The notes beneath the pieces are model-generated. The model searched no databases and was not told where the DNA came from. It saw only the letters and a list, made by a program, of their open reading frames with translations. Positions 1 to 62,512 of a DNA stretch of 64,000 nt are shown in pieces. Where the stretch lies: IMG/VR virus record IMGVR_UViG_2903405734_000002, positions 1-64,000 of that record; one strand, 5' to 3'. Made by a program: the position numbers and the translations under genes. How positions within the stretch are numbered: position 1 is the stretch's first letter; every line of letters starts with the position of its first letter. The stretch comes from a virus (lineage: Duplodnaviria > Heunggongvirae > Uroviricota > Caudoviricetes).

Positions 1-71
1 GAATTCGTCTAGTGGTAGGACGGCTGCTTTGCAAGCAGCTCACAGGAGTTCAAATCTCCTATTCTCCACCA
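1..71 (+). tRNA. tRNA-Cys(GCA), 5'-truncated by window edge
   Basis: Anticodon arm gctgc/tttGCAaa/gcagc, T-arm aggag-ttcaaat-ctcct, acceptor 3' strand followed by A and encoded CCA at 69-71. The window starts inside the D-arm. Confidence 0.8.
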
Positions 72-94
72 TCTTTTGCATATAAATGCAATCT

Positions 95-170
95 CGGGGT
101 ATAGCTCAGTTGGCAGAGCTTCGGACTCTTAATCCGCGTGTCGCTGGTTCGAGCCCAGCTGCCCCGACCA
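95..170 (+). tRNA. tRNA-Lys(CTT)
   Basis: Cloverleaf: acceptor CGGGGTA/TGCCCCG, D-stem GCTC/GAGC, anticodon loop ctCTTaa, T-arm GCTGG-TTCGAGC-CCAGC, discriminator A plus CCA. Confidence 0.8.
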
Positions 171-176
171 ATTTTT

Positions 177-251
177 GCTCTGTTCGACTAGCGGCTAGGT
201 CGTTGCGCTTTCAACGCAGAAAGACGGGTTCGATTCCCGTACAGAGCACCA
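177..251 (+). tRNA. tRNA-Glu(TTC)
   Basis: Acceptor GCTCTGT/ACAGAGC, anticodon stem TTGCG/CGCAG with loop cttTTCaa, T-arm ACGGG-TTCGATT-CCCGT, discriminator A, CCA encoded. Confidence 0.8.
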
Positions 252-1600
252 ATCACTGGAGAAGTAGAGCTTGACATCCTCCCAGCCTTAAAGGACTGGA
301 ATTCCTACTGCAATTATGCGCAAGCGCGTAATTCACTTCGGTGGGTTCCTGCTGCTGGCGGCCTTATTGCACCACTCACTTCACAGGCTAACTGGGCGTG
401 TCCCGCCCTTAAAACATTGATTGCGCCAATTACATCAGCGTGTTCACTGAAACCGCATTTGACGCAAAGAAATACGGATTGGGTCTGGCGGTTATCTCCT
501 GAAACATGCCCACAGCACGGACAAGTGCGACTGGTGTTTTTGGGGTTTATCGCTATCATATGGCCGCCTTGCCAAGCTGTTTTGTAGTCAAGCTGACGCC
601 TGAACTCGAACCAACCCTGATCGAGTATCGACTTATTCAAACCCGACTTTGCTCGCACGTTGCGACCTGGCGCTTCCGCTGTTCCTGCTGCCGACTTGGA
701 CATATTTCTTATCTGCAAATCTTCCACCACCACGAGCGCGTGGTTTTTGCTGATCGTGGTGGTTTCTTTATGCAGAAAGTCTTTTCGACAGAAGGCAATG
801 CGGCTGTGGATCCGCTGGACTTTGGCCTTGGCTTTCTTCCAGTTGGCGCTGAATTTGGTCTTGCGACTCATCGCCCGCTGCGCCTTTCGCAGGGCCTTTT
901 CGTGGCGCTTGAAGCTATTGAGAGGGGCTTTGAAATCACCATTGCTGAGAGTGTAGAAACGGGCAATGCCCATATCGATACCGATATCTCCGCCCTGGTG
1001 CAGGGGCACTTCAACCTCTCGCTCAGTCTGGATAGAAACAAACCACTTTCCTGATGCCTGGCTAACCGTGACGTTTTTGATATCACCTAGCACGGCACGA
1101 CTATTGCGATAGCGCATCCAGCCTAGCTTTGGCAGGAAAATCCGGTTATTGGCCTGATCTAACTTGCAGCCCTGCGGATAACGAAATCCGCAACAAAGAC
1201 CCTTCTTCTTGAAGCGCGGAAAGTCAGCTCTTTTGCTGAGGAAATTACTGTAGGCCCGTTCTAAGTCCTTAAGCGCTTGCTGCAAAGACTGGGAAGGGGC
1301 ATCAGCCAACCATCCTGTCTCGTTCGCTCCTTTCCATGCTGTGAGCTGGCGACACAGGCCAGCATAGCTAAGTCTCTTCTCGCCCTGCTCCAATAGCTCT
1401 TTTTGCAAAGCCAACGCCTTGTTATAGACGAAACGACAAGAGCCAGCGAAGCGGCGCATTTGTCGCTGTTGCTGGCTGTCTGGCCGAAGTTCGTATTTGA
1501 AGGCTTGAAGTCGTTGCATGGTCACAGTGTATTTTATTTCATAATAAATTCAACCATATAAGTGCCGAGTGTGGCTTCTATCCAGAAAAACAAAGGCCAT
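252..1600 (-). mobile_element. IS200/IS605-family tnpB-only (IS1341-like) element, approximate ends
   Basis: A lone tnpB sits between the tRNA-Glu 3' end (251) and a downstream terminator (about 1592). Exact LE/RE not determined; the right end and putative omega-RNA scaffold would lie in about 252-420. Confidence 0.5.
314..1525 (-). CDS. tnpB: TnpB (IS200/IS605-family OrfB, RNA-guided endonuclease-type transposase)
   Basis: 403 aa with RuvC-like motifs GIDMGI, VVVEDL and HADVIGAINV. C-terminal zinc finger CPCCG...CVKCG. GC-rich relative to the surroundings. Confidence 0.9.
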   Translation of the reverse strand: MTMQRLQAFKYELRPDSQQQRQMRRFAGSCRFVYNKALALQKELLEQGEKRLSYAGLCRQLTAWKGANETGWLADAPSQSLQQALKDLERAYSNFLSKRADFPRFKKKGLCCGFRYPQGCKLDQANNRIFLPKLGWMRYRNSRAVLGDIKNVTVSQASGKWFVSIQTEREVEVPLHQGGDIGIDMGIARFYTLSNGDFKAPLNSFKRHEKALRKAQRAMSRKTKFSANWKKAKAKVQRIHSRIAFCRKDFLHKETTTISKNHALVVVEDLQIRNMSKSAAGTAEAPGRNVRAKSGLNKSILDQGWFEFRRQLDYKTAWQGGHMIAINPKNTSRTCPCCGHVSGDNRQTQSVFLCVKCGFSEHADVIGAINVLRAGHAQLACEVSGAIRPPAAGTHRSELRACA

Positions 1601-2222: not shown

Positions 2223-2494
2223 AGATTTGAGAGAGCGCCTGTTACTGGCTTGAACCATGAGCCGATCAAAAATAGCTTTCGGCTCATTGTATGAGCCATT
2301 CAAAGCAGCCAATCGGCTCATCTGGTGAGCCATTGAAAATGGTCGGTCGGCTCACCTAATGAGCCAATGAGGGGTTATGGTCGGCTCACGCCATGAGTCG
2401 CGCACCGATGGTTATCGGCTTGGATCATGAGCCGATCAGTGCTCGCTATCGGCTCACTATATGAGCCAATCAATTTCTGTGATAGGATTGGCGG
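2223..2494 (+). repeat. Tandem array of 34-bp units (7 full plus about 1 partial), each carrying the inverted repeat TGAGCC...GGCTCA
   Basis: ATGAGCC (GTGAGCC in unit 3) recurs at 2257, 2291, 2325, 2359, 2393, 2427 and 2461, an exact 34-bp period. Each unit contains TCGGCTCA, which forms the palindrome TCGGCTCA-N4/5-TGAGCCGA with the next unit. The last unit is the fic start codon and first codons. Confidence 0.85.
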
Positions 2495-3666
2495 GTATAA
2501 GTTGGCGGGATTTGGAGCTATTGATGGAAAAATGGATCTGGAAAAATGAAAAATGGCCTCAATTTCACTGGTCTGGCGCTGCTATCAACCCTCTTTTGAG
2601 GGAGGTAAGAAACAAGCTGGGATTGTTGCTTGGGATGACATCTGCGTCTGCATTTGATGGAAGCCTGGACTCTCAGGCCCTCGATACTTTGCTGGCTAAC
2701 ATTGTGGCGAGTTCCGCAATTGAAAATGAGAGACTGAATGCTGAGTCAGTTCGGTCTTCCCTTGCAAAGAGGTTCGGGATTTCATCTGAGCGCACATACC
2801 CAGTAAGCGAGAGCTCGGAAGGCTTGGCAGAAATGCTGTTCGATGCCTTGAGTCGAGACGGCATAGAGAGACCACTAACCAAAGAGCGGCTGTTCCGCTG
2901 GCATGAATGTCTATTTCCAGGATGTGATGATCTCATTATCGGCAGCAGGGTCTCTCCTGGTAAGCTCAGAGGGCCAGAGGTAATGCAGGTGGTGTCTGGC
3001 AGGATAGATCGGCCTGTAGTGCATTTTGAGGCTCCTCCTCGCGATGGTCTTGAGGAGCAGCTAGATGAGTTTCTTGCCTGGTTTGAAGAAAGCCGGAGCG
3101 AGCAAGAGCAAGACCCGTTGCTAAGGGCCGGAATAGCGCACCTGTGGTTCGTTACATTGCATCCCTTTGATGATGGGAATGGAAGATTGACCAGGATGCT
3201 CACTGATTTGGCGCTAGCCCAGGCAGATCATCATGTTGTCCGCCTGTACGCCATGTCTGTTTCCATCCTTGATAAGCGAGCGGAGTATTACTCAGCACTC
3301 AAGAAAGCTCAGAGAGGTACTACAGACATAACATCATGGCTAGAGTGGTTTTATGCTACGCTGATCCACACTCTCGATGATGCACAGAAAAAAGTTTCAA
3401 CTACTGTTGCAAAGGCCGAATTCTGGCTTAAGAACCGAAGCCTCTCACTCAAGCCTGAACAGTTGAAGGTCTTGAATCGAATGTTAGATGGCGGAGAGAA
3501 GGGGTTTGAAGGCGGAATTAGCGCATCCCAGTACCAATCTGTCGCCAAGGTAAGTAAGGCAACCGCAACAAGGCACCTTGCCGAGCTTTTGGAAAATGGA
3601 TGTTTAGTGAAAGGTGCTGGCGGCGGCGGCAGCTCCAGGTACTTCATAAACACAAGCAAAAAGTAA
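2461..3666 (+). CDS. Fic/DOC family protein (adenylyltransferase-type) with C-terminal wHTH
   Basis: Canonical Fic motif HPFDDGNGRLTR. 401 aa. Confidence 0.9.
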   Translation: MSQSISVIGLAGISWRDLELLMEKWIWKNEKWPQFHWSGAAINPLLREVRNKLGLLLGMTSASAFDGSLDSQALDTLLANIVASSAIENERLNAESVRSSLAKRFGISSERTYPVSESSEGLAEMLFDALSRDGIERPLTKERLFRWHECLFPGCDDLIIGSRVSPGKLRGPEVMQVVSGRIDRPVVHFEAPPRDGLEEQLDEFLAWFEESRSEQEQDPLLRAGIAHLWFVTLHPFDDGNGRLTRMLTDLALAQADHHVVRLYAMSVSILDKRAEYYSALKKAQRGTTDITSWLEWFYATLIHTLDDAQKKVSTTVAKAEFWLKNRSLSLKPEQLKVLNRMLDGGEKGFEGGISASQYQSVAKVSKATATRHLAELLENGCLVKGAGGGGSSRYFINTSKK

Positions 3667-3730: not shown

Positions 3731-4363
3731 TTATATTTCTTTTTTCAGCTTACAGCATCTTTGCTGAACAGAATATAGCGTTCTCTCTGGGAAATAAGCA
3801 TGAACCTCAGTCCAGTTCTTTCCTTGCTTAATCAATTCCTTGATTTTGATATCCTGCTCCTCATCCCACGGATTTTCCTTGGTGTATTTCTTTCTTGCAC
3901 AGATCTTTGAAACCTTTGCTTTTGTAAGTCCAGTGGCCTCTGCCATCTCTGCATGAGTCATGGTTTTATAGTTGTTCTTAATAAAATCCATTTTTTTCTC
4001 ATGTTCTGGATCTTGTGCAAGGGTTTGATATTTTTTTAGTCCCAGCTTTCTACATCTGTTTCTAACATCAAGATCTGTTCTTCCAAGGGCTACTCCCATT
4101 TTTCCATGAGTTAGCTCATTGATGTTGTCTGTGATAAATTTATCTTCTTTATCCGTCCAGGCATTCTTACTTCCCTTTACGGCATAAACAACATCCTTTA
4201 TTAAACCCATCTGCCTGCACATCAAAACGACTTCTCGATTCGTTCTTTTTAGTGCATCGGCCATTTCAGCTGTCGTCATTTTCTTTACATTTTCAACAAG
4301 GAATTGTCTTTCCTCGTTTGTAAAGTCAGTAACCTCTGTTAATCGAACACCTAATTTAGCCAC
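3731..4363 (-). CDS. DNA-binding protein with four Myb/SANT-like HTH repeats
   Basis: Four roughly 50-aa repeats, e.g. WTDKEDKFITDNINELTHGKMGVALGRTDLDVRNRCRKLGL and WDEEQDIKIKELIKQGKNWTEVHAYFPERTLYSVQQRCCKL, matching the Myb pattern W-x-EED...GRT...QCR...L. Confidence 0.6.
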   Translation of the reverse strand: MAKLGVRLTEVTDFTNEERQFLVENVKKMTTAEMADALKRTNREVVLMCRQMGLIKDVVYAVKGSKNAWTDKEDKFITDNINELTHGKMGVALGRTDLDVRNRCRKLGLKKYQTLAQDPEHEKKMDFIKNNYKTMTHAEMAEATGLTKAKVSKICARKKYTKENPWDEEQDIKIKELIKQGKNWTEVHAYFPERTLYSVQQRCCKLKKEI

Positions 4364-4507
4364 TTAAAACCACTCCCTCCAAATATTTATTGCGGATAAT
4401 ATATCATAAAGTATATTGATTGCCAATAGAGTGATGTTACCGAAGATGACATGCACGTAAAATAAAATGGCGAGCAATAAGTGCTCGCCATTAGCCTTGT
4501 TGACTCA

Positions 4508-5632
4508 TTATTTTTTGGGTTTTGAGACGATAATGAGCTCTTCGCTTGAATCAGTTTTGCTTAGGGCGTACTTGTATCCTCCGGCAGAGTAGACGGTTGC
4601 CTCTCTATTGAACGAAGACATCACCTTGGCCGCCTCCAGGGGGACTGGAAGACCATCGCTCCTATAGCTAAACACGATTGTTGCATTAGGCCACCTGTTG
4701 CAGATCGCGGTGAGCTCGGCAAGTGCGGTATCGGGCTTGAGCCAGGCACTGGGCTTGCGAGAGACAGGGCGATGTGGATACCTTTCATCGCCAGATGAGA
4801 ATAATGAATAATCACAAAGGCCATCAAGGAAGTGATAGAAGTCGCTGTAATCAACAGAAACTCCCTTGCCATTGATGTAAGGCGGGTCTAGATAAATCAG
4901 ATCATAATCATCGGCAAAATCACTGAGCGATGCAGAATTAAAGCCAGTAACTCTTGACTCGCTACATTCAGAAATTTCCCCCTTAAAGTTCTTTAGCTCA
5001 TTAATGCACTTAATTGCATGCTTTAGGATTGGGGTTTCCCAAGTCATTTTGTTACCAAAACTTCTCTTTACTTCCTTGGTGCGCATATCCAGATTAGAGC
5101 GGTGGAACAAGTTGTATGGGCGTTTTTTGGTTAGTGCTTGGCCCACGGCATAAATATAAAGACTACGCTCAAAATCATCGTATTTATCGATATTCTGACA
5201 GAATCGGTCAATCTCTGTGTTTTCTGACTCGATAAAAAAGATGCCTTTGTAATTTTTGGATACCAGGCCATCAGAAACAGGGAGCCTGTAAAGAAGATCT
5301 TCAAGGTCTTTTTTGAAGTCAATCTTCTCAATTTTTTCCTTTGTGAAAGTCTGAAAAACCTTAGCAGTATTTTGGCTGTAGAGCATAAAGTCATTTGATG
5401 AGACTTCTTTGCCAATTGTCCTGAACAGCAGAGAGACCACGCCAGAGCCAGAGAACATATCGAGTGGCCTGGTGTATTCAAGCTTGCCTAATGCCGATGC
5501 CAATTCGGAAAGGATCTTGCGCTTTGACCCCTGGAATCGTGTAGCTGGAAACGGCGGGAGAGGGTACTTTTCTGGGTTAAGGAAATAGATTTTTTTCCCG
5601 ATCTCATGAAATTCGGTTTTGTTATTATCCAA
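4508..5632 (-). CDS. N6-adenine DNA methyltransferase, Dam-like (D12 class)
   Basis: Motif I FSGSGVVSLL preceded by RFQGSKRKI (compare Dam KWAGGKYPL). Catalytic DPPY (LIYLDPPYINGKG). Confidence 0.85.
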   Translation of the reverse strand: MDNNKTEFHEIGKKIYFLNPEKYPLPPFPATRFQGSKRKILSELASALGKLEYTRPLDMFSGSGVVSLLFRTIGKEVSSNDFMLYSQNTAKVFQTFTKEKIEKIDFKKDLEDLLYRLPVSDGLVSKNYKGIFFIESENTEIDRFCQNIDKYDDFERSLYIYAVGQALTKKRPYNLFHRSNLDMRTKEVKRSFGNKMTWETPILKHAIKCINELKNFKGEISECSESRVTGFNSASLSDFADDYDLIYLDPPYINGKGVSVDYSDFYHFLDGLCDYSLFSSGDERYPHRPVSRKPSAWLKPDTALAELTAICNRWPNATIVFSYRSDGLPVPLEAAKVMSSFNREATVYSAGGYKYALSKTDSSEELIIVSKPKK

Positions 5633-5742
5633 TTTTTGCCTCTTATTATATTTATTGTATTTTATTGTTATTTTTACTTTTTGGTGTTCTTAGATATCAA
5701 TATTGAGCCCAGGATGGGCTCAACTTAAATTTAAATCAACAC

Positions 5743-6219
5743 TTATGCCGCCATTTTTTTCTTGGATGCAATCATGGACTCCAAAACATATTTTGGTTCA
5801 TCATTATGATGTTCATCCAAGATATCATCAAAAAGATCCATAAATAAATCAATGGCTCTCATATCAACATTTGCGTAAATCATTTCTTTGACAAGCTCCG
5901 ATGTCAGATAAACATCTACATCACTCATCAGTCCTTTATTGTGCCTGTAATCGCACAAAAACATCCCTGCATGGGCAGCAATAACACGAAAACATGGGCG
6001 TTCAAGACCTGATTTCTCATGCGCCTTGATTACAGCAGGCATGCTCGCTCTTACAGCCATTTCAATTGCATTTTTGAGTTGTTTTTTTGACATCCCAAAT
6101 GGAGCCTCATTAAATGAAGCACCTGTAATCTCTGCAATCCGCACGAGTTGCTTTGTTGAAGCCCAAACATCCATGGCATTTTTGATATTCAAAAAAACAG
6201 ACATAAGTCCTCCGGTCAC
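5743..6219 (-). CDS. hypothetical protein (158 aa), translationally coupled to upstream GNAT gene
   Basis: Start overlaps the GNAT stop at 6219. No motif recognised. Confidence 0.5.
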   Translation of the reverse strand: MTGGLMSVFLNIKNAMDVWASTKQLVRIAEITGASFNEAPFGMSKKQLKNAIEMAVRASMPAVIKAHEKSGLERPCFRVIAAHAGMFLCDYRHNKGLMSDVDVYLTSELVKEMIYANVDMRAIDLFMDLFDDILDEHHNDEPKYVLESMIASKKKMAA

Positions 6220-6728
6220 TATCGTGAAAGATCAGTGCTGGCAGGCTCAGGCTCGCCAAACATAAGGGACTTCAAGACCTTGGCCTGACCCTTGTTTGCC
6301 ATGAAAATGTCTCCATTGGAGGCAAAAACAGGCTCAAAGCCAGCCTTCCGGTAAAATGCGATTAGGTTGAAGTCTTTTCTCTGAGCATGACATGTGGATG
6401 CGAAAAGAAAATCGACCTCTGTAAAACCACATTCCTTTTGCAGAAATGCATCAAGCAGCGCTTTTCCAAATCCCTTGCCTCTGCTGTCTTGGTTTACAAG
6501 CACGTTCTGTATGAAGCCAACAGAGTTGTATCGTTCCTCAATGGCAGACAGGAATAGATCTACCATGTTTTGGTTTGCATTCACTCCAAAAGACATGGCC
6601 TCATAAATCTCATCAATATTGGAGATGTCGCTGATGGTCAAACCCCTGATTCGACCATGATCATTCTTTGTCTCAATCACACAAAATCCTCGCGATGATA
6701 ATTTTTGAATTATATAAGTGAACAGCAA
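6219..6728 (-). CDS. GNAT family N-acetyltransferase
   Basis: Acetyl-CoA binding motif QDSRGKGFGKALLDAF. 169 aa. Confidence 0.8.
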   Translation of the reverse strand: MLFTYIIQKLSSRGFCVIETKNDHGRIRGLTISDISNIDEIYEAMSFGVNANQNMVDLFLSAIEERYNSVGFIQNVLVNQDSRGKGFGKALLDAFLQKECGFTEVDFLFASTCHAQRKDFNLIAFYRKAGFEPVFASNGDIFMANKGQAKVLKSLMFGEPEPASTDLSR

Positions 6729-6802
6729 TCATGTAAATTAATTTGTTCAAAAATAAAGGCCATCATTATGATGGCCTAAATGCGCTTTCTTGGAGTCGAG
6801 GC

Positions 6803-8203
6803 TCAAAGACACACATCTCCTTTGGATAATGCTGTTGTTGAGCTTATAGAGCCAGCTGCTGTTGTATAAACGCTTGTTCCCACACCCATTCGACCGGAGT
6901 AGTTTTGGCAGAATGCGCTACTACCTGTTACCCTTGATGGCCTCTTGGATACCAGGATGCTGCCCTGACTCATGTTTTTAAACGCATTGAGCACATCTGG
7001 CTTGCTCTCGGCTTGGGTTCCGGTCAGTATGACCCTCACTGATGACTTGATTCCTGCAAGAGCGGAAATATCAGACAGGCTAGAATCACCGGAAAAATCG
7101 AGCGTTCCTGCGACTTCGAGTGTTGAAAGGCCGCTGATGTTGGTTAGTGATGGCATGTCGCTAAACAACATGTTGCTAGCACTGCCATTCATGCTGGTTT
7201 TCTTAACTCCGCTCATCCAGTTGATGTTTGTCAGTAATTTTTGTCCTTTGAGGCTGACAGTCCTGATTGGCTCATCACCAATAGCTGATGTGATAGAGAT
7301 GGAGGGGAAGTCAGCATCGCTCAGCATCTCTCCATTCAGAGCCATGTGGCTCAAATATGCGTCTGCCCTAAGATCAGCCAATGAGAGGATATCGTTGTAT
7401 CTGGAATGACCATGATTATGATAAAAATCAAGCCAAGGATTGCTTTCTGACTTGCAAATATCTTTTGCAACAACATCCTTTAATTGGTATCCAACCTGCT
7501 CTTTAGCTTTTAGCTTTTTAGACTGAATTCCCTTACAGAACGGGGTCGAGAAATCAGGTTTTTGCTCCTTGTACTGAGCAATAGGCCCGACATTTATTTC
7601 ACCAGAACCAATATTTTTAAATGGTATAAGAGTCGTCATGCTCGACTTTGATATATCAATTTTTGTTGCCTGAGAAAGATTTTTTAGTGCCAAATTATAA
7701 TCAGAAGAGGTCGGGGTTTTGCTCCCAATATAAAGAGCATTAACGCTAACAAGATCTGAGAATCCCTTGATTGATGATGCCTCTGGGCCAATGGTGACAG
7801 AACCATCAATGGCCTTAATCCCCTTCATAAAATCATAATTTTGGATTTTTGAGTTATATGTGTTCAGTCCATATATGCGATCAAGACCAATGGCAAATTT
7901 AGGCAAATTATCGTTGCTGTATTTTAAATTCGAGAGATCTACTGACAGCTTGTTTTTTGACCATGCATCCAAAGATGTGGTTGTCTTGGGAATTTTGCCC
8001 TCCGCCTTCAAAAATTCAAGCCACGCAACCTGATTATCCTCTAATCCAGGCTCCTCTTTTGGAATCTCTGGCTCAGGAGTGATCTCGGATGGAATAGTAA
8101 GGCCATCTGCCGGAATGATAATGCGGTACTCGGAAGCTGCATTGGCAAAAGAAGAAAATGCTGAGATAACAAGACATGCAGCGCATGTTTTTTTGATATT
8201 CAT
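6803..8203 (-). CDS. secreted protein with C-terminal LRR-like repeats
   Basis: N-terminal signal peptide MNIKKTCAACLVISAFSSFANAAS. Repeats of the form L..L.NISGLSTL..., SSLSDISALAGI. Related in pattern to the 47.1-50.3 kb paralogue family. Confidence 0.6.
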   Translation of the reverse strand: MNIKKTCAACLVISAFSSFANAASEYRIIIPADGLTIPSEITPEPEIPKEEPGLEDNQVAWLEFLKAEGKIPKTTTSLDAWSKNKLSVDLSNLKYSNDNLPKFAIGLDRIYGLNTYNSKIQNYDFMKGIKAIDGSVTIGPEASSIKGFSDLVSVNALYIGSKTPTSSDYNLALKNLSQATKIDISKSSMTTLIPFKNIGSGEINVGPIAQYKEQKPDFSTPFCKGIQSKKLKAKEQVGYQLKDVVAKDICKSESNPWLDFYHNHGHSRYNDILSLADLRADAYLSHMALNGEMLSDADFPSISITSAIGDEPIRTVSLKGQKLLTNINWMSGVKKTSMNGSASNMLFSDMPSLTNISGLSTLEVAGTLDFSGDSSLSDISALAGIKSSVRVILTGTQAESKPDVLNAFKNMSQGSILVSKRPSRVTGSSAFCQNYSGRMGVGTSVYTTAAGSISSTTALSKGDVCL

Positions 8204-8336
8204 TATGAAACACCTTTTTTATTATTGTTATTTGGTAAGTTCATAGTTTTAAACTATTAGTTTTTAATGATATTTACTAAAATAAAAAAGGTAAAGTTTT
8301 TTTTAATATATAAACGTTTGTTTGTATTTGTTGAAT

Positions 8337-8366
8337 AAAAAAGCCCCGTTAAAGGGGCTTTTTTGG
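8337..8366. terminator. Bidirectional rho-independent terminator
   Basis: aaaagccccg-ttaa-aggggctttttt. Confidence 0.7.
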
Positions 8367-8377
8367 TTGGTCTTTGC

Positions 8378-10345
8378 TCAAACTGGGCGAGATGGCTCTT
8401 CCATGCCACAAGCATAGTTCTCTGCCATGAGCAGGTATGGAGCCCATTTGAGGTATTCCTGCCTGGTTCTCGGGTCAGAGAAGAACCGCTTGTAGTCACC
8501 CTTCTGGTAAGCAGACGCATTCAAAAGCATCGAGAACGGAACTGTGATTGAGTCCTTGATTTTTTTATCGTAGTAGTCACGACCCATGTAGTTTACCGAT
8601 GGCTCTCGATACCATGTGAATACAGCCTTGCCTGTCTTCATCTGTTTGGATGCAATAGCGAGCTTTCCAGGGCCTTCATTGTTCGCGGGAATGTATCGGT
8701 CGAGCTCTCTGAGCTCATCGCCGTAGGCAGACCTTAATCGCCGTTTATTCTCTCGATCTGTCTCTCTCTGGACAAAAGCCTCATGCTGTCCAACGAAAAC
8801 TGACTCGCTGGTGATTTTGTCATTGAGTGCGGCCCTGAATGCTTCAAAGTCAGGCTTTTCCCCTGAGTAGAGGACGTATTCCGCATCATAGATCAGCTTG
8901 ATGTGCTTGATGAAGTCACTGGGCTTAGACAGGGAGATCCGGCCATGAGGGCTAAGTGCCTCCGAACGGTCTAACAGACCCTGCAACACAACAGAGACCT
9001 TGTTGTATTTTTTGATCTTGTCTGAGAAATACTGATTGATCTCATCAAAGTAGACGTTTTGGTTGTCAAAGGCTTGATATCTGCCATGACGGATATCATC
9101 AAACAGGCTACTGTGGTGTCGATCAATATCTCCTGCTTTTTTGCTTTCTTCAATCTGCGTCAGAACCTGCTCGTACTCGCGAACAGTAATGACGTTTTTG
9201 ACCTTGCCACAGAACATATAAACCATCACTGGTTCGTTAATGAAACCATCATCAGATGGGAAGATCATCTCATCAAAATCCAACATCGTTGAAATTCGAT
9301 AGATTTTCTCTCCATTTCTGACGTAGAGGAAGGTTTGCTCATCCTGCTTTTCCAGGCTGAATCTTACAAACGCATGGATTGAGTTGTCATAGCTTTTTGT
9401 TTTTCTTCTTACCTTGAAGGCAACAACGGTCTTCGAAAATGGCAGCAGCCTTTCTGCGTTCCCATTTCGGCAGAGCCAGCGATCAAACTCAGAGATTTTT
9501 GTAAATGACATGCCGCCTGCATCGTAGTCCAGCAGACACTCCTCATCCATATACAGCCTGCGCTGCATCACATGGATCATCTCATCAGCTCCAGCTGGGA
9601 TGCCGTCTCTCACAAGAACAGTGTCCTCATCAATCCCTGCATACAGACCAACATCCTCAATACGATCATCAATCTTCTTCATGTCATTTTTGATTGATTG
9701 CATCATTGCGGATGGGATCATGGTGCTTGCAAGCACCCACTTTGTGATGACCTGGCAGGTACGCTCAAGATCACCCTGCATGCTTGGCAGAGTCTTCTCT
9801 TTAAAGACGATCATCTCACCCTTGAATGCATTCACATCCATCACATCAGACAGGACTGCAATGCCAGTAGATGAGGACTCCTGAATAGGGGAGGGAAGGG
9901 ACTTGCCGGAAACAAAGCTCGAAACATCACCACTTACCTGCAAACCAAACTTCGCAGCAAGAAGAGATATCTGCCCAAGGATAGCCTTTGATTTCTCCTG
10001 TCCAGCATTGATGAAGTCCTGGATGATTTGCTCATGGCAGGGCTCAAAAATTAGTTGCTCAAACGCATCAGAAAACAACACTCGCTTGTGAAGCGATGAC
10101 AATCTCGCGCCGCTAGGCTCATTCAGCTCAATGAAGTTACTCCCGATGTGAGTGATGCACATGAGGAAGTAGTGGTTATCACCAATTTTCTTTGTGATGT
10201 GCTCGCCGCGACCATCGTCATTCCAAACCGCTTTGGCCCAGTGCCACTGACCAATGAAGAAAATGCCTTTATCTCCGTCTTTCTCAAGGAGGTGACCCTC
10301 ATTTTCCGAAATGACTGAATGTGAAACAGCATGTTTGTCGTTCAT
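8378..10345 (-). CDS. hypothetical large protein (655 aa)
   Basis: Long ORF. Start moved to MNDKHAV (ATG 10345), which follows AGGAG at good spacing. The upstream in-frame extension lacks an RBS. Confidence 0.6.
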   Translation of the reverse strand: MNDKHAVSHSVISENEGHLLEKDGDKGIFFIGQWHWAKAVWNDDGRGEHITKKIGDNHYFLMCITHIGSNFIELNEPSGARLSSLHKRVLFSDAFEQLIFEPCHEQIIQDFINAGQEKSKAILGQISLLAAKFGLQVSGDVSSFVSGKSLPSPIQESSSTGIAVLSDVMDVNAFKGEMIVFKEKTLPSMQGDLERTCQVITKWVLASTMIPSAMMQSIKNDMKKIDDRIEDVGLYAGIDEDTVLVRDGIPAGADEMIHVMQRRLYMDEECLLDYDAGGMSFTKISEFDRWLCRNGNAERLLPFSKTVVAFKVRRKTKSYDNSIHAFVRFSLEKQDEQTFLYVRNGEKIYRISTMLDFDEMIFPSDDGFINEPVMVYMFCGKVKNVITVREYEQVLTQIEESKKAGDIDRHHSSLFDDIRHGRYQAFDNQNVYFDEINQYFSDKIKKYNKVSVVLQGLLDRSEALSPHGRISLSKPSDFIKHIKLIYDAEYVLYSGEKPDFEAFRAALNDKITSESVFVGQHEAFVQRETDRENKRRLRSAYGDELRELDRYIPANNEGPGKLAIASKQMKTGKAVFTWYREPSVNYMGRDYYDKKIKDSITVPFSMLLNASAYQKGDYKRFFSDPRTRQEYLKWAPYLLMAENYACGMEEPSRPV

Positions 10346-17090: not shown

Positions 17091-18686
17091 ATGAAAAAGA
17101 ACAGTGGTTTTACTCTTTTAGAGCTACTCTTGGTGATTGGCCTGTCTACAGCCATAGCCGTTGTGGCCTTTCAGGACAAAATGCTTGAGACCGAGCAGTC
17201 ACAGGCAAGACAGCTTGGTATGGAGCTCTTTCAGTACAACTCCGCCGTACAAAACTATCTTGCTCATGAATCAGGAAACAAGAATCCGGCATCTTTGAAC
17301 GGGGTAAAGCACAGTGGTGTAAACTGGCTTAAATCCTCATCATCCTGTAGTGGCGGCCAGGCTGTGAAGGAGTGGCTTGCCTGTAGATTCCTTCAAGCGC
17401 AAGGTGGAAAAACCACTTTTGGTCGCCTGTCTTTCAACACAACCCTCTCGTTCTCAAGCTCTGAGGGTTTGAGTGCAACAACAGTGGTTAGCCCGCTTGA
17501 GTTCAATAAAAATGGGGTGATGGAGAGAAGGGGTGATCTGAGTGGGTTGGCGGCTCTCGTTGCTTCTGGTGCTTATTCGGTTAAGGACAAACCTATGGCG
17601 GCCAACTCTCAGGATAGCTCCATCGTTTACTGCCCAGAAACCGCATCAAAATCGCCGAGCATGGCCGCGATTTGTAATGGCAGGGATGGGTCTATTGTGA
17701 TGTTTAGCCGCAACTTGAGCGAGTCTGATAGATGGCTTCGCGTTGATCATGGCAACGTGATGCAAAACACTCTTGAATTCCGCACTGGCAGTACAACTCC
17801 TGAGTCCCTTTCTGAGATCCAAAAGATTGACTCTGTTGCTCGTCAAATCCGCAACGTTGCCAGGATATACAACCTTGGCGATGGCAATACCAACGGAGAA
17901 AATGACAATCTTTATCTTGGAAAAAGAAAAGGCGAGTTCGCCAAAACATCTGCGACACTTAAAAGTGACGCTGTAATTGTTGATGCTGATCAGGAGATTC
18001 TTGGGAAGTTAATTGTCCAAAGTGATGTTATTGCAAGAGGAAATATAACATCTGAGAAGGACATTCTTGCCAAGGGCAACATAACATCTGAGAAGGATGT
18101 TCTTGCTAAGGGCAACATAACAGCTGAAAAGGATATTCTTGCAATTGGAAACATTACCTCTAAGGGCGGTCTAAAAGTAGATAAAGATGCCTTAATAAGT
18201 GGCAATACGACCACATCAAAAATAATTGATGCTAATGACGGAAACTACTATGTTGACATGAATGGATCATCAAAACTAAATGTTCTTGTTGCAAATCAGA
18301 TAGAATCAACAGGATTTATTCTTCCTGGCGCATTTAAACCAGGAGAAAACTGTTCAAGAAATGGGGCTATTGGCAGAAACTCAGCAACTAATGGGCCTAT
18401 GCTTTGTGTTAACAATAAATGGGAAAGTAATGAATCCAAGATAGGGCCTTGGGTTGCTTATAGTCCAAATGTAACCTATACAGCCCCATCAGATGGTTTT
18501 ATCACTGCTAAGACACGGCACAACAATTGGGTTTCTATATCTGTTGGTGGTTCAGAGCGCTGCCATGTTGCAGCACGAGATAAATACGGCCAAGGACAGG
18601 TAAGCTGTACAAGCATTGTTGCCAAAGGAGAGAAATTCAGGGTTACTGGTGGCATTCAATATATTTATTTCAGGCAGATCGGGTAA
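17091..18686 (+). CDS. large type IV pilin-domain protein (paralogue 1 of 3)
   Basis: Prepilin leader MKKNSG|FTLLELLLVIG with E+5. Contains an internal 33-bp (11-aa) AKGNITSEKDIL repeat x3.5. Cys-containing C-terminal domain. Confidence 0.8.
   Translation: MKKNSGFTLLELLLVIGLSTAIAVVAFQDKMLETEQSQARQLGMELFQYNSAVQNYLAHESGNKNPASLNGVKHSGVNWLKSSSSCSGGQAVKEWLACRFLQAQGGKTTFGRLSFNTTLSFSSSEGLSATTVVSPLEFNKNGVMERRGDLSGLAALVASGAYSVKDKPMAANSQDSSIVYCPETASKSPSMAAICNGRDGSIVMFSRNLSESDRWLRVDHGNVMQNTLEFRTGSTTPESLSEIQKIDSVARQIRNVARIYNLGDGNTNGENDNLYLGKRKGEFAKTSATLKSDAVIVDADQEILGKLIVQSDVIARGNITSEKDILAKGNITSEKDVLAKGNITAEKDILAIGNITSKGGLKVDKDALISGNTTTSKIIDANDGNYYVDMNGSSKLNVLVANQIESTGFILPGAFKPGENCSRNGAIGRNSATNGPMLCVNNKWESNESKIGPWVAYSPNVTYTAPSDGFITAKTRHNNWVSISVGGSERCHVAARDKYGQGQVSCTSIVAKGEKFRVTGGIQYIYFRQIG
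18046..18180 (+). repeat. In-frame 33-bp coding tandem repeat (about 3.5 copies)
   Basis: aagggcaacataacatctgagaaggatgttcttgct-like units encoding (A)KGNITSEKDIL. Confidence 0.7.
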
Positions 18687-18719
18687 TCCCCTTTGCAGCA
18701 TATTTAATTAGGGGACTTA

Positions 18720-20594
18720 ATGAAAAACAAAGGGTTTACTCTTCTAGAATTATTGTTGGTTATTGGCATCACAACATCAATGGCTATTGTTTCGTTTCAA
18801 GATAAGATGCTTGAGACGGAGCAATACCAGGCAAGAAAATTAGGGATGGAGTTGTTTCAATACAACTCCGCTGTTCAAAACTATCTGGCACATCAATCTG
18901 GAAACCCTAACCCTAAATCACTGGAAAAAACGCACATTGGTGTAAAGTGGCTTAAGTCCACCAGCTGCGGCGGAGAGAGTGATAAAGAGTGGTTGTCTTG
19001 TAATTTTCTTGGGTACACAAATGGGAAAACCTCGTTTGGCAGGCTCTCGTTTAGTACAACCATTGTGTATGAGAACAATAACGTTCTTACTGCTAGAACA
19101 GTTATGAGCAAGCTGAATGTCGGCACCGCTGGTAAGAACCAGGAGAGGGCTGATCTCAGTGGTCTTGCAGCTATGGTGGCATCAGGGGCCTATGCCGTCA
19201 GTGAGGATGGAAGAGCTGCCAGCGCTCAAGATAGCACCATCGTTTACTGCCCAGATACATCCATTCCAACAGCCAGCACAGCGGCTTGTCAGGGTGAGAA
19301 AGGGGTAATAGTGATGATTGGCCGAAATCAGAGCTCATCAGACAGATGGCTAAGGGTTGATCATGGTAACGTGATGCAAAACGCTTTGGAATTTCGGACA
19401 GGGGACTCCACGCCATCAACGCAATCAGAGCTTTCTGCAATAGATGGATTCAATAGACAGATCCGTAATGTAGCTCGAATTTACAACCTTGGAGATAGCA
19501 ATAGTAATTCATCTAGTGACAACCTTTATCTCGGAAAGAAATATGGCAATGCAGCAAAAAGCATGGCTACTCTTGCAAACAATGCAGTTATTGTTGATGC
19601 CGACCAAGAAATTCTTGGAAGGTTGGTTGTTTCTTCGTCTATTCAGGCCAAAGGCAATATCTCCACAGAAAAAGATATTAGTGCAAAAGGAAATATCTCA
19701 TCTGACGGCAAGATTACAGCCAATCAAGATATTGAATCAAAGAAAAACATCTATGCGAATGGAAATCTTATTTCAGCAGGTGATGCAAACATTGGAAATA
19801 CTCTTAATGTAACAAGGGATGCCGCGATTAATGGTGCAGCAACGATAAACGGAATTGTTACAGCAAAAAGTAAAATGGCTGTTGGCGATGATGCCACGTT
19901 CAATGGAAACATCTTCGGAAAGAAAAGTATTTTTGTAGATCAAAACGGAACATTCAACGGCATCGTTTCAACTCAAAGATTGGTTGATGCCAATAATAAT
20001 GGATATTATGTAGACCCCAGCGATACATCAAGACTAAATAGCGTGAATGCGAACTATCTAAAATCATATGGAGATATCTCTTCTGATGGAAGTATTTATG
20101 CAAATGGAAATATGAGTGCTAATGGCAATGTATCATCAGGAAACATTGCATCAGGAAAGTATATTCTTCCAAACCAGGTTGTTGGCGTAAATAGTTCCTG
20201 TGCGGGCCTTCCTTCTGGAACAATCGCAAAAAGTCCGCAAGGAGAGATTTTAAGTTGCCAATCTGGAATTTGGGCGGGTTCAAAAAGTGACATGCAGACT
20301 TTTTCTGGCAATAGCTCAATTAGCGGATTGACGCCATACAAAAAATATCTTGTCACAGTGTATGGCATTACTGATGACAAAGGGGAGAGAGGTGCGTGGT
20401 TAGGGCCTGTTAAAGTAACCAACAGCAGTGGGGGAGTAATTGATACTACAAGTAGTCTTGATATAAACTGGATGGATGGAAATACCCCTCAGAGTGCTGT
20501 TTTTATAATTAACGCTCCATATGATGGTGTTATTTATGGATATACAGATAATGACAATGCTGCGCTTAATATGAAAGCAGTTTCCCTTAATTAA
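18720..20594 (+). CDS. large type IV pilin-domain protein (paralogue 2 of 3)
   Basis: Leader MKNKG|FTLLELLLVIG. N-terminal about 300 aa is conserved with paralogue 1 (RADLSGLAA.VASGAY, DRWLRVDHGNVMQN, IRNVARIYNLGD). The C-terminal half diverges. Confidence 0.8.
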   Translation: MKNKGFTLLELLLVIGITTSMAIVSFQDKMLETEQYQARKLGMELFQYNSAVQNYLAHQSGNPNPKSLEKTHIGVKWLKSTSCGGESDKEWLSCNFLGYTNGKTSFGRLSFSTTIVYENNNVLTARTVMSKLNVGTAGKNQERADLSGLAAMVASGAYAVSEDGRAASAQDSTIVYCPDTSIPTASTAACQGEKGVIVMIGRNQSSSDRWLRVDHGNVMQNALEFRTGDSTPSTQSELSAIDGFNRQIRNVARIYNLGDSNSNSSSDNLYLGKKYGNAAKSMATLANNAVIVDADQEILGRLVVSSSIQAKGNISTEKDISAKGNISSDGKITANQDIESKKNIYANGNLISAGDANIGNTLNVTRDAAINGAATINGIVTAKSKMAVGDDATFNGNIFGKKSIFVDQNGTFNGIVSTQRLVDANNNGYYVDPSDTSRLNSVNANYLKSYGDISSDGSIYANGNMSANGNVSSGNIASGKYILPNQVVGVNSSCAGLPSGTIAKSPQGEILSCQSGIWAGSKSDMQTFSGNSSISGLTPYKKYLVTVYGITDDKGERGAWLGPVKVTNSSGGVIDTTSSLDINWMDGNTPQSAVFIINAPYDGVIYGYTDNDNAALNMKAVSLN

Positions 20595-20606
20595 AAGGAT
20601 AATAAA

Positions 20607-22526: not shown

Positions 22527-22602
<76 letters not shown>

Positions 22603-22605
22603 GAG

Positions 22606-22681
<76 letters not shown>

Positions 22682-22683
22682 AT

Positions 22684-22759
22684 TCTCTCGTAGTTCAGTC
22701 GGTAGAACGGTGGACTGTTAATCCATATGTCACAGGTTCAAGTCCTGTCGAGAGAGCCA
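22684..22759 (+). tRNA. tRNA-Asn(GTT)
   Basis: Acceptor TCTCTCG/CGAGAGA, anticodon loop ctGTTaa, CCA encoded. Confidence 0.85.
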
Positions 22760-22816
22760 AATTTCTTCTGTCGATGCATTTCGGCAAGAAGAGAGCCGAA
22801 AGGCTCGCCTGTTTGA

Positions 22817-22892
22817 TGCGAGGTAGAGCAGTTGGTAGCTTACGGGCCTCATAAGTCCGTGGTCGCTGGTTCGAGTCCAGCCCTCGCTTCCA
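22817..22892 (+). tRNA. tRNA-Met(CAT), with 1:72 mismatch
   Basis: Anticodon loop ctCATaa, T-arm GCTGG-TTCGAGT-CCAGC, CCA encoded. Positions 1 and 72 are T:T. Confidence 0.8.
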
Positions 22893-22898
22893 AGATTT

Positions 22899-22975
22899 GG
22901 GATTGTAGCTCAGTTGGTTAGAGTGCTGGCCTGTCACGTCAGAGGTCGCGGGTTCGAGCCCCGTCAGTCCCGCCA
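22899..22975 (+). tRNA. tRNA-Asp(GTC)
   Basis: Acceptor GGGATTG/CAGTCCC, anticodon loop ctGTCac, CCA encoded. Confidence 0.85.
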
Positions 22976-22980
22976 TACAT

Positions 22981-23064
22981 GCGAATGTGGTGAAATTGGT
23001 AGACGCAGGACATTTAAAATGTTCCGCCTTTGGCGTGTCGGTTCGATCCCGACCATTCGCACCA
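22981..23064 (+). tRNA. tRNA-Leu(TAA)
   Basis: Acceptor GCGAATG/CATTCGC, anticodon loop ttTAAaa, long variable arm, CCA encoded. Confidence 0.85.
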
Positions 23065-24952: not shown

Positions 24953-25029
24953 GGCCCCGTATCACAATCGGTTAGTGGAGCGTCCTCATAAGGCGTAACG
25001 TCTCGGTTCGAGTCCGAGCGGGGCCACCA
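24953..25029 (+). tRNA. tRNA-Ile2-like (anticodon CAT, lysidine type)
   Basis: Acceptor GGCCCCG/CGGGGCC resembles E. coli ileX/ileY (GGCCCCT). Anticodon loop ctCATaa. CCA encoded. Strong terminator hairpin follows at 25046-25097. Confidence 0.75.
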
Positions 25030-27146: not shown

Positions 27147-27514
27147 GGGGCTGACCTGGTTTCGACAGGGTATAGGTGCCTGAATTGCGAGTCGTGTGTT
27201 ATGTATCACACGTAAATCCATGCATAAAACAAATAATCGCTAACGACGAAAGCTTCGCTGTCGCCGCCTAATAAGCGGTAGACAGCCTCTCCACTCAGGG
27301 TTTCTCAGGGCCTAGAGAACATGGAGAGTCAAGTCTCCCTGAGATCGCGTGGCGGCTTCTGTCAGTAGCCAAGACGCTAAACGTAACCTGACTCGCCGGA
27401 GGAATGATTTGCCCATCAATCATCTTCCTGGCTAAAAAAATGATGAGGCTATGCTCGTAGATGTTCAACGCACTGGTGTTCTGGACGCGGGTTCGATTCC
27501 CGCCAGCTCCACCA
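27147..27514 (+). ncRNA. ssrA: tmRNA (SsrA), tag peptide ANDESFAVAA
   Basis: 5' GGGGCTGAcctggtttcgac. Resume codon gct then AACGACGAAAGCTTCGCTGTCGCCGCCTAA. 3' tRNA-like end GGACGCGGGTTCGATTCCCGCCAGCTCCACCA. 368 nt. Confidence 0.95.
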
Positions 27515-56658: not shown

Positions 56659-59146
<2,488 letters not shown>

Positions 59147-59230
59147 TGTGGAGATATGCCTCAACCTAAAAAAATGAACCAATGGCAATAAAAAAGACCC
59201 CTTCAAGAGGGGTCTTTCTTCTGATAGGAA

Positions 59231-61293: not shown

Positions 61294-61301
61294 AATTTTC
61301 C

Positions 61302-62510: not shown

Positions 62511-62512
62511 AG

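What the first reader, a model, noticed from the sequence alone, without database searches (positions are those of the whole stretch)
3731..5632. Four-repeat Myb/SANT-like DNA-binding protein paired with a Dam-like adenine methyltransferase
The 210-aa protein consists of four roughly 50-aa units fitting the Myb/SANT signature (W..EED...GRT..QCR..L), which is unusual in bacteria. It sits directly upstream, on the same strand, of an orphan D12-class DPPY methyltransferase. No cognate restriction enzyme is evident. The HNH gene is 20 kb away.
Basis: partly seen in the sequence, partly recalled or inferred. Interest (0 to 1): 0.55.

Follow-up and report, generated by a model that had tools for sequence, protein, structure and literature searches.

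The report
Phage-type Myb-repeat regulator, orphan methylase
A small DNA-binding protein built from four Myb-like helix bundles sits next to a lone DNA adenine methylase in what looks like a large phage-like element, but both belong to known families and they are neighbours through local gene order, not an obligate pair.

Summary
Both ORFs exist at the stated coordinates, but on the minus strand. The methylase (4508-5632) is therefore upstream of the 210-aa gene (3731-4363), not downstream. A predicted terminator and a promoter lie between them.

The 210-aa protein is four three-helix Myb-like repeats. Repeat 4 is a canonical Myb. Repeats 1-3 are a GcrA-DBD/Myb-like type that is common in phages. 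The protein belongs to PHROG 323, "transcriptional regulator, D5-like" (E 5e-40), and is a remote homologue of phage T5 D5.

The methylase is a D12-class enzyme with no restriction partner. Its 73%-identical Vibrio homologue is paired with an EcoRV-family endonuclease, so the likely target is GATATC.

The pairing is not conserved beyond one group of closely syntenic relatives:
- Four of five close relatives carry a Sel1-repeat gene between the two genes.
- One related lineage has the methylase without the Myb gene.
- Three lineages have Myb homologues without the methylase.
- One lineage has methylase-Arc-Myb in an operon-like arrangement.

These are new members of known kinds. In passing, 26 of 64 hexamer palindromes are completely absent from the window.

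The parts
3731..4363 (-). Gene for the 210-aa four-repeat Myb-like DNA-binding protein ('Myb4'); basic (pI 9.35)
   Evidence: ORF. PF00249 E 1.9e-10. phrog_323 E 5.4e-40 with 4 stretches. AF2 model with four 3-helix bundles. dN/dS 0.12-0.27 against relatives. pI.
4199..4327 (-). Repeat 1 (aa 13-55); the usual Trp is replaced by Phe
   Evidence: Self-similarity R1-R2 z 17.2 and R1-R3 z 9.1. Helices 16-25, 31-38 and 42-51.
4034..4162 (-). Repeat 2 (aa 68-110), WTDKED...GRTDLDVRNRCRKLGL
   Evidence: Weak single-sequence matches to Myb R3. Repeat profile A5 hits Myb and GcrA DNA-binding domains.
3884..4012 (-). Repeat 3 (aa 118-160); lacks the Trp and is HTH-like
   Evidence: Weak HTH family hits over aa 122-159.
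3743..3874 (-). Repeat 4 (aa 164-207), a canonical Myb repeat
   Evidence: PF00249 41.1 bits on aa 164-206. c-Myb 1h88 E 1.2e-11.
4398..4426 (-). Sigma-70-type promoter-like site for the Myb4 gene (TTGGCA-17-TATATT, with TG before the second hexamer)
   Evidence: 10 of 12 matches. The region is conserved in L001 and L002. Prediction only.
4466..4492 (-). Intrinsic-terminator-like hairpin after the methylase gene (11-bp stem followed by a T run)
   Evidence: RNA fold -20.2 kcal/mol, z -3.4. Conserved next to the methylase 3' remnant in L001.
4508..5632 (-). Orphan D12-class N6-adenine DNA methyltransferase (374 aa); probable GATATC specificity, inferred
   Evidence: PF02086 E 5e-15. PADLOC MTase_II E 6e-35. 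FSGSG at residue 60 and DPPY at residue 249. 73% identical to the Vibrio parahaemolyticus enzyme that is paired with an EcoRV-family endonuclease. dN/dS 0.02-0.05.
5743..6219 (-). 158-aa ORF of unknown function between the GNAT and methylase genes; present only in the window
   Evidence: Window 5798-6203 is absent from L001 and L002. No hit in Pfam, PADLOC, PHROGs or NCBIfam.
6219..6728 (-). GNAT acetyltransferase, the constant upstream neighbour of the methylase in every related locus
   Evidence: PF13508/PF00583. GNAT-methylase adjacency in L001, L002, L006, L012, L015, L016 and L017.

Best explanation
These are two separately transcribed genes of a large phage-like element.

(1) The 210-aa protein is a double-strand-DNA-binding transcription or replication regulator of the phage "D5-like" family. 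It has four Myb/GcrA-DBD-like three-helix modules joined like beads on a string. Each module is expected to place its basic third helix in the major groove, so the protein would read a long or repeated site, or coat DNA cooperatively as T5 D5 does. It probably works with an Arc-type ribbon-helix-helix partner in relatives; that partner has been lost in this genome.

(2) The methylase is a solitary descendant of an EcoRV-type restriction-modification system. It most likely methylates GATATC and so protects the element's DNA from hosts that carry that restriction system.

Their adjacency reflects local gene order next to a tRNA cluster, in a variable cargo region, not a two-gene system.

Shown: family memberships, fold, lack of a restriction partner, variable adjacency, purifying selection. 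Inferred: DNA binding and regulatory role, the GATATC target, the anti-restriction role, the phage nature of the element.
For: Myb4 family:
- phrog_323 'transcriptional regulator, D5-like', E 5.4e-40, 4 stretches.
- hhalign to Listeria phage B054 gp65: 98.3% probability, E 1.5e-14 over 167 columns.
- hhalign to T5 D5: 95.2% probability, E 2.7e-8. The T5 record annotates D5 as a DNA-binding protein required for replication and late transcription (McCorquodale 1979, cited in PMC12630848).
- 22 phage proteins in BFVD at E<=1e-3, including 'D5 protein' of a Vibrio phage.
- The third helices are basic.

Arc link:
- Arc-Myb4 fusions P0005 and L007 8802-9854.
- Arc gene overlapping the Myb4 start by 4 bp in L006/L012.

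Separate transcription units: terminator plus promoter between the genes.

Methylase:
- The Vibrio homologue is convergent with a PF09233 endonuclease.
- That endonuclease matches EcoRV structures at E 7e-43. The alignment covers the EcoRV segments that I recall as the catalytic residues (D74, D90, K92) and the GSGNTxN recognition loop; the match is shown by the tool, the role assignment is from memory.
- 73% identity spread evenly along the methylase.
- No homologue of that endonuclease in the window.
- GATATC is not depleted (24 observed against 20-25 expected), whereas 26 other hexamer palindromes are absent.

Phage-like context:
- 11 tRNAs plus a tmRNA.
- RNA ligase, a PNK-like gene and a ParB-like gene, all with PHROG hits.
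- LigA 44-47% identical to phage LigA proteins.
- Nothing similar among 185,579 species genomes.
Against: - No phage structural gene was found in the 64 kb, and no relative is present in IMG/VR. A plasmid or an odd chromosomal island is therefore not excluded.
- The methylase family is almost absent from sequenced phages (1 weak hit).
- GATATC specificity rests on homology only, and many other palindromes are also spared.
- In L006/L012 methylase, Arc and Myb4 are close-packed on one strand, which fits co-transcription and a possible functional link.
- The regulator's targets are unknown. No repeated DNA motif was found near the genes.
Confidence: 0.6

Rival explanations
1. The methylase and the Myb4 protein form a functional epigenetic module. 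Either Myb4 (with Arc in relatives) controls methylase expression, as a restriction-modification controller protein does, or it reads the m6A mark the methylase writes, as GcrA reads CcrM methylation.
For: - The genes are adjacent in the window.
- The window-type junction appears ancestral, because a methylase 3' remnant sits directly next to the Myb4 promoter region in L001 and L020.
- L006/L012 have an operon-like methylase-Arc-Myb4 arrangement, although the Myb4 proteins are only about 36% identical.
Against: - A terminator and a separate promoter lie between the genes.
- A Sel1 gene is inserted between them in 4 of 5 close relatives.
- L015 has the methylase but no Myb4.
- L005/L007, L021 and L022 have Myb4 homologues but no D12 methylase within reach.
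- The GcrA methyl-pocket residues R33, N34, I37 and G38 (PMC5887438) are not kept in R1 or R2. This rests on my manual alignment.
- There is no sigma-interacting domain.
- All loci that keep the pair are syntenic relatives, so they count as one observation.
Confidence: 0.12
2. The protein is a eukaryote-like effector (a 'nucleomodulin') acquired from a eukaryotic host. It would be secreted by an intracellular bacterium to bind host chromatin, alongside neighbouring eukaryote-like Sel1 and Fic proteins.
For: - Repeat 4 matches eukaryotic c-Myb repeats (E 1.2e-11).
- Fic (2461-3666) is the immediate neighbour, and relatives carry a 14-repeat Sel1 protein next door.
Against: - Repeats 1-3 and the whole architecture match phage proteins.
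- The closest homologues lie among arrays of small phage-like ORFs.
- No housekeeping bacterial context and no secretion signal are evident.
- Restriction-site purging across the window points to a mobile element or phage.
Confidence: 0.03
3. The protein is the free-standing or left-over DNA-binding part of a homing endonuclease. The same tandem repeats serve as the DNA-recognition arm of HNH and LAGLIDADG endonucleases.
For: - phrog_1891 HNH endonuclease, E 5e-6.
- P0024 carries the repeats plus a LAGLIDADG domain.
- BFVD hits annotated as endonucleases.
Against: - There is no nuclease domain.
- The 210-aa length is conserved, with purifying selection (dN/dS 0.12-0.27), in all close relatives.
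- The same four-repeat stand-alone architecture is kept in P0004, P0006 and B054 gp65.
Confidence: 0.05

Closest known systems
Phage T5 D5 protein and PHROG 323 ('transcriptional regulator, D5-like'), e.g. Listeria phage B054 gp65
   Same: Small proteins made only of tandem ~45-aa WTxEE...GRT...LGL three-helix repeats. HMM E 5.4e-40. Profile-profile probability 98.3% (B054 gp65) and 95.2% (T5 D5). Found in a phage-type gene context.
   Different: Only about 24-29% identity. The last repeat here is a canonical Myb repeat (W...W spacing, FPxRT), which T5 D5 lacks. T5 D5 lies in the replication module beside the ligase genes; here the neighbours are a methylase and Fic. Function has not been tested here.
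GcrA DNA-binding domain (Caulobacter crescentus; PDB 5yiu) with the CcrM methylase
   Different: GcrA has one DNA-binding domain plus a C-terminal CCCH zinc sigma-70-interacting domain (PMC5887438). Here there are four DNA-binding-type repeats and no such domain. PF07750 does not match. The methyl-pocket residues are not conserved (manual alignment). The methylase is D12 class, not CcrM type.
Eukaryotic Myb/SANT repeats (c-Myb R1-R3, DMTF1, SNAPC4, Reb1)
   Same: Three-helix fold and the signature W-x2-EED...GRT...R. R4 passes the Pfam Myb threshold. The repeat profile hits DMTF1 and B-Myb at E about 1e-5. The multi-repeat proteins SNAPC4 and Reb1 are the top Foldseek PDB hits, though weak (E 0.04).
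   Different: Prokaryotic or phage origin. R1 and R3 lack the first Trp. The linkers are long and disordered. There are no flanking eukaryotic domains.
EcoRV-type type II restriction-modification systems, and solitary phage or mobile-element adenine methylases
   Same: D12-class enzyme with motif I before DPPY. 73% identical to the methylase that is convergent with an EcoRV-family endonuclease in Vibrio parahaemolyticus.
   Different: No endonuclease is present here. It is not a Dam-family member by the NCBIfam threshold. It has no solved relative by sequence. The target site is not measured.

Membership tests
Myb/SANT DNA-binding domain (PF00249) | Match to the family model above its curated threshold | tested here: met
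   Repeat 4 (aa 164-206) scores 41.1 bits against a cut-off of 24.4, E 1.9e-10. c-Myb structures match at E 1.2e-11.
Myb/SANT DNA-binding domain (PF00249) | All four units are Myb-type three-helix bundles | tested here: met
Phage D5-like transcriptional regulators (PHROG 323) | HMM match over the tandem repeats, and homology to T5 D5 | tested here: met
   E 5.4e-40 with 4 stretches. hhalign 98.3% to B054 gp65 and 95.2% to T5 D5.
Phage D5-like transcriptional regulators (PHROG 323) | Double-strand DNA binding, with an effect on replication or late transcription | not testable with these tools
   Known for T5 D5 only (T5 record note; McCorquodale 1979).
GcrA family (PF07750) | GcrA-type DNA-binding fold | tested here: met
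GcrA family (PF07750) | Match to the family model, and a C-terminal CCCH zinc sigma-70-interacting domain | tested here: not met
   No PF07750 hit at E<=0.1. The protein ends right after repeat 4. Its Cys residues (49, 104, 155, 203, 204) cannot form the C-X14-C-X9-C-X2-H motif described in PMC5887438.
GcrA family (PF07750) | m6A methyl-pocket residues (R33, N34, I37, G38) | tested here: inconclusive
   When the repeats are aligned by hand on the ...LGL end of helix 3, R1 gives N, R, V, L and R2 gives D, L, R, N at these positions. They are not conserved, but the alignment is manual and the target site would differ anyway.
D12-class N6-adenine DNA methyltransferase (PF02086) | Family model match, SAM-binding FxGxG and catalytic DPPY | tested here: met
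   56.3 bits against a cut-off of 22. FSGSG at residue 60 and DPPY at residue 249.
Dam family proper (TIGR00571) | Score above the curated cut-off | tested here: not met
   23 bits against a cut-off of 114.85.
Complete type II restriction-modification system | Cognate endonuclease gene next to the methylase | tested here: not met
   The neighbours are a 158-aa ORF of unknown function, GNAT and Myb4. tblastn with the Vibrio EcoRV-like enzyme finds nothing in the window, L001, L002, L006 or L012.
Restriction-modification controller (C) protein | Small single Xre-type HTH protein encoded upstream of, and co-transcribed with, the endonuclease or methylase | tested here: not met
   The protein has four Myb-like repeats, lies downstream of the methylase behind a terminator-like hairpin, and has its own promoter-like site.

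The most novel reading that the evidence does not exclude
In a clade of large tRNA- and tmRNA-carrying phage-like elements, an orphan GATATC-type methylase and a multi-repeat GcrA-DBD/Myb-like protein (with an Arc partner) form an epigenetic switch. The repeat protein would bind DNA according to its methylation state and so time the element's gene expression or replication. This would be a phage counterpart of the CcrM/GcrA module.
Probability: 0.06. Interest if true: 0.6.

Novelty: new member of a known kind. Interest (0 to 1): 0.25.

Why it matters
Taken at face value, a Myb-repeat protein coupled to a methylase in a prokaryote would suggest a new epigenetic reader-writer pair. The evidence gives a more ordinary picture: a phage D5-like tandem-repeat regulator and a restriction-modification-derived solitary methylase that lie side by side in a variable cargo region.

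Three points remain useful. The D5-like phage regulators are built from repeats that are Myb-like and GcrA-DBD-like in both sequence and fold. The methylase gets a likely target site (GATATC), which can be tested. The host element belongs to a poorly sampled lineage with extreme restriction-site purging.

Tried and rejected
- Hidden restriction enzyme. I suspected the 604-639 aa gene between the methylase and Myb4 in relatives was the missing endonuclease. It is a 14-repeat Sel1 protein.
- Autoregulation through a GATATC site 66 bp upstream of the methylase start. The site is not conserved in any relative, which have GATGTC there.
- Repeated DNA motifs as candidate binding sites around the two genes. 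Nothing beyond chance-level short repeats.
- Fusion of the repeats to DNA methylases in cluster-J mycobacteriophages. These were tblastn hits at E 0.1-0.2. The annotated gene is a C5-cytosine methylase without the repeats, so the hit is weak and probably a different frame or an inserted HNH gene.
- Identifying the organism. Both genome-contig scans (Myb4 and LigA), three viral-contig scans, and megablast against phages, plasmids and E. coli found no close relative. A literature search for the accession prefix JAAKOL was useless.
- Whole-chain Foldseek against the PDB gave only weak hits (best E 0.04), because the four domains have no fixed relative arrangement.
Full report
**What is in the sequence**

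The ORF list shows both genes at the reported coordinates, on the minus strand.
- A 374-aa ORF at 5632->4508 has a TTG start preceded by AAGAGG. This start context is conserved in all relatives.
- A 210-aa ORF at 4363->3731 has a GTG start.

The 144-bp gap holds an 11-bp-stem hairpin followed by a T run (4492-4466; RNA fold -20.2 kcal/mol, z -3.4). It also holds a TTGGCA-17-TATATT promoter-like site with a TG extension (4426-4398). The two genes are therefore predicted to be separate transcription units.

Both genes are under purifying selection against close relatives: dN/dS is 0.12-0.27 for the repeat protein and 0.02-0.05 for the methylase.

**The repeat protein**

- Internal repeats. Units R1 (aa 13-55), R2 (68-110) and R3 (118-160) are similar to one another well beyond shuffled controls (z 9-17). 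R4 (164-207) resembles R2 (z 4.2).
- Predicted structure. AlphaFold2 on a shallow 4-sequence alignment gives four three-helix bundles with confident domains and disordered linkers (mean pLDDT 80.6; pTM 0.33, as expected for beads on a string).
- Repeat 4 is a canonical Myb repeat: PF00249 scores 41.1 bits against a cut-off of 24.4, and c-Myb structures match at E 1.2e-11.
- Repeats 1-3 belong to a 43-aa repeat type with consensus xWTxEExxFLKxNYxxMTxxEIAxxLGRTxxSVxxKAxKLGLx. I recovered it 166 times in 101 of the 149 best family members. A profile of 40 such repeats hits solved Myb domains (DMTF1 1.5e-5, B-Myb 3e-5, c-Myb 2e-4) and the GcrA DNA-binding domain (6e-3).
- The third helices are basic and the protein has a pI of 9.35.

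The four-repeat Myb/SANT-like description is therefore correct.

**It is a known phage family**

- PHROGs assigns the protein to phrog_323, "transcriptional regulator, D5-like", with E 5.4e-40 and four matched stretches.
- Profile-profile comparison gives 98.3% probability (E 1.5e-14, 167 columns) to Listeria phage B054 gp65, which has the same four-repeat build.
- It gives 95.2% probability (E 2.7e-8) to T5 D5 itself. The T5 record annotates D5 as a DNA-binding protein required for replication and late transcription. The original paper is McCorquodale et al. 1979, listed in the references of PMC12630848.
- Foldseek against predicted viral structures gives 22 phage proteins at E<=1e-3, including a "D5 protein" of a Vibrio phage and endonucleases that use such repeats as DNA-binding arms.
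- An exhaustive HMMER search of 1.84 billion representatives finds 1012 proteins at E<=1e-3 and 109 at E<=1e-10. Many have 3-10 repeats. Some are fused to Arc or LAGLIDADG domains.

Close full-length relatives are rare, however: only 4 proteins reach E<=1e-30.

**The methylase**

- It is D12 class (PF02086, E 5e-15), with FSGSG at residue 60 ahead of DPPY at residue 249.
- It is not a Dam-family member by the curated threshold (23 bits against 114.85), and it has no solved relative by sequence.
- The family is widespread. Homologues 68-73% identical occur in Vibrio, Klebsiella, Moritella and Aeromonas.
- In Vibrio parahaemolyticus the 73%-identical homologue is convergent with a PF09233 endonuclease.
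- That endonuclease matches EcoRV structures at E 7e-43. The alignment covers the stretches that, from my recollection of EcoRV, hold the catalytic Asp74, Asp90 and Lys92 and the GSGNTxN recognition loop.
- Identity between the window enzyme and the Vibrio enzyme is even along the chain, including the region between motif I and DPPY.

I therefore infer GATATC as the likely target, with a probability of about 0.6-0.7. It is conserved in that position in L012 and is unrelated to the methylase.

**Is the pair conserved?**

All loci found are listed below.

| Group | Loci | Arrangement |
|---|---|---|
| A (Myb4 78-98% identical) | window | methylase, then Myb4 |
| A | L001, L002, L016, L020 | a 604-639 aa Sel1-repeat gene on the opposite strand lies between methylase and Myb4 |
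| B (Myb4 ~36%, GNAT ~50%, methylase 80-83% identical) | L006, L012 | GNAT - methylase - Arc (108 aa) - Myb4, close-packed on one strand, Arc stop overlapping the Myb4 start |
| Other | L015 (methylase 73%) | GNAT - methylase - terminator - tRNA-Arg/Ala, no Myb4 |
| Other | L005, L007 | an Arc-Myb4 fusion, followed in L007 by a second Myb4; no D12 methylase in the flank held (10 kb upstream in both, about 6 kb downstream in L007 only) |
| Other | L021, L022 | Myb4 homologues without the methylase; L022 lies near MksE/condensin-like genes |

- In L001 and L020 a roughly 130-160 bp remnant of the methylase 3' end still abuts the terminator-promoter-Myb4 segment. The window-type junction therefore looks ancestral in group A, and the Sel1 gene a later insertion.
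- Group B is syntenic with the window and ends at a tRNA cluster (different tRNAs, though its end resembles the window's tRNA region), so it counts as shared ancestry, not independent evidence.
- The constant partner of the methylase is the GNAT gene.
- The constant partner of Myb4, where there is one, is Arc. It occurs as a fusion or as an overlapping gene.
- The segment between the methylase and the tRNAs is variable cargo: Sel1, Arc, Fic, IS605/TnpB and small ORFs.

**Nature of the element**

The 64-kb window carries:
- 11 tRNAs and a tmRNA
- LigA, 44-47% identical to LigA of Aeromonas phages and of ~275-kb Serratia jumbo phages
- an RNA ligase and an HD/AAA_33 PNK-like gene
- a ParB-like gene (phrog_1033) and a helicase

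Most of the other large ORFs that I scanned (about 35) have no family match. No close relative exists among 185,579 species genomes or in IMG/VR.

Restriction sites are purged to an unusual degree. 26 of the 64 hexamer palindromes are entirely absent, although 6-20 copies of each are expected. GGWCC and CTGAAG are absent as well. Close relatives show the same pattern: 0 observed against 59 expected in L001, and 0 against 39 in L002. GATATC is not purged (24 observed, 20-25 expected), which fits protection by the methylase. Many other palindromes are also spared, so this is only consistent with that idea, not specific support.

I read the element as a large phage or phage-like replicon of a gammaproteobacterial host. 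No structural gene was seen, so this remains an inference.

**Mechanism and rivals**

Best reading (confidence 0.6): Myb4 is a D5-like multi-module double-strand-DNA-binding regulator with its own promoter. The methylase is a solitary anti-restriction enzyme derived from a restriction-modification system.

The main rival (0.12) is a functional methylase/Arc/Myb4 epigenetic module, by analogy with CcrM and GcrA (PMC3667746, PMC5887438).
- For: the GcrA-like fold and the group B arrangement.
- Against: the variable adjacency, the separate promoter, the lack of GcrA's sigma-interacting domain, and methyl-pocket residues that are not conserved in my manual alignment.

A eukaryote-derived effector (0.03) and a homing-endonuclease remnant (0.05) are unlikely.

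**Verdict**

The "paired system" interpretation is not supported as a conserved unit. These are new members of known kinds, and interest is 0.25.

Noticed in passing
window 1-64000 (also L001, L002; weaker in L012, L005, L007): Extreme restriction-site avoidance. 26 of 64 hexamer palindromes are completely absent, although 6-20 copies of each are expected. This includes all four NGGCCN' and all four NCCGGN' palindromes, while GGCC itself occurs 178 times. GGWCC and CTGAAG/CTTCAG are absent too. L001 and L002 show 0 observed against 59 and 39 expected. GATATC, GATC-containing sites, GAATTC, CAGCTG, GAGCTC and TTGCAA are spared.
   Followed up: partly
window 1-251, 22527-23064, 24953-25029, 27147-27514: Eleven tRNA genes in three places, plus a full-length tmRNA (tag ANDESFAVAA), in a region almost free of recognisable housekeeping genes. 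The related contig L012 also has a tmRNA (tag ANDENFALAA) and tRNAs. This suggests a huge phage or similar replicon from an unsampled lineage.
   Followed up: partly
L001 7778-9592, L002 2068-3987, L016 11179-12993, L020 33-761: A 604-639 aa protein with 14 Sel1 repeats is inserted on the opposite strand between the methylase and the Myb gene in 4 of 5 close relatives. L001 and L020 keep a duplicated ~130-160 bp methylase 3' remnant beside it. The window lacks the gene.
   Followed up: yes
L006 1798-2124, L012 11172-11498, P0005, L007 8802-9854: An Arc-type ribbon-helix-helix protein is either encoded just upstream of the Myb4 gene, overlapping its start by 4 bp, or fused to its N-terminus. 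This link is stronger than the one between the methylase and Myb4.
   Followed up: partly
window 5743-6219 (-): A 158-aa ORF with no family match lies between the GNAT and methylase genes. The 406 bp at 5798-6203 are absent from L001 and L002.
   Followed up: partly
window 2461-3666 (+): A DUF4172-Fic protein (PADLOC SoFic, E 1e-40) lies immediately downstream of, and convergent with, the Myb4 gene. It is present in L002-L004 and absent in L001, where an IS605 TnpA/TnpB pair sits instead.
   Followed up: no
window 314-1525 (-): An IS605-family TnpB (OrfB_IS605 plus a Cas12f1-like TNB domain) lies next to tRNA-Lys and tRNA-Glu. Its nearest DNA matches are Aeromonas media and Edwardsiella plasmids at 73-75% identity.
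   Followed up: no
window 17091-22415 (+): Three consecutive 531-624 aa proteins carry a type IV pilin-like N-terminal methylation motif. Two of them also carry bactofilin-like repeats. This is an unusual combination.
   Followed up: no
window 56659-63256 (-): A cluster of NAD-dependent DNA ligase, a ParB-like protein (phrog_1033; shared at 50-60% identity with L007), an HD/AAA_33 polynucleotide-kinase-like protein and an RNA ligase. This looks like a tRNA or nucleic-acid repair set of the kind phages carry.
   Followed up: partly
L008-L011 (Vibrio parahaemolyticus), 5395-8526: The EcoRV-type restriction-modification pair in Vibrio is flanked by a PUA-like protein and an anti-restriction-like (PF03230) gene. 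GATATC is absent from the 13-kb locus L008 (0 observed against 4.3 expected).
   Followed up: no
L022 11652-16329: A distant Myb4 homologue lies 3 kb upstream of an MksE-containing condensin or Wadjet-like gene trio (429, 210 and 919 aa).
   Followed up: no
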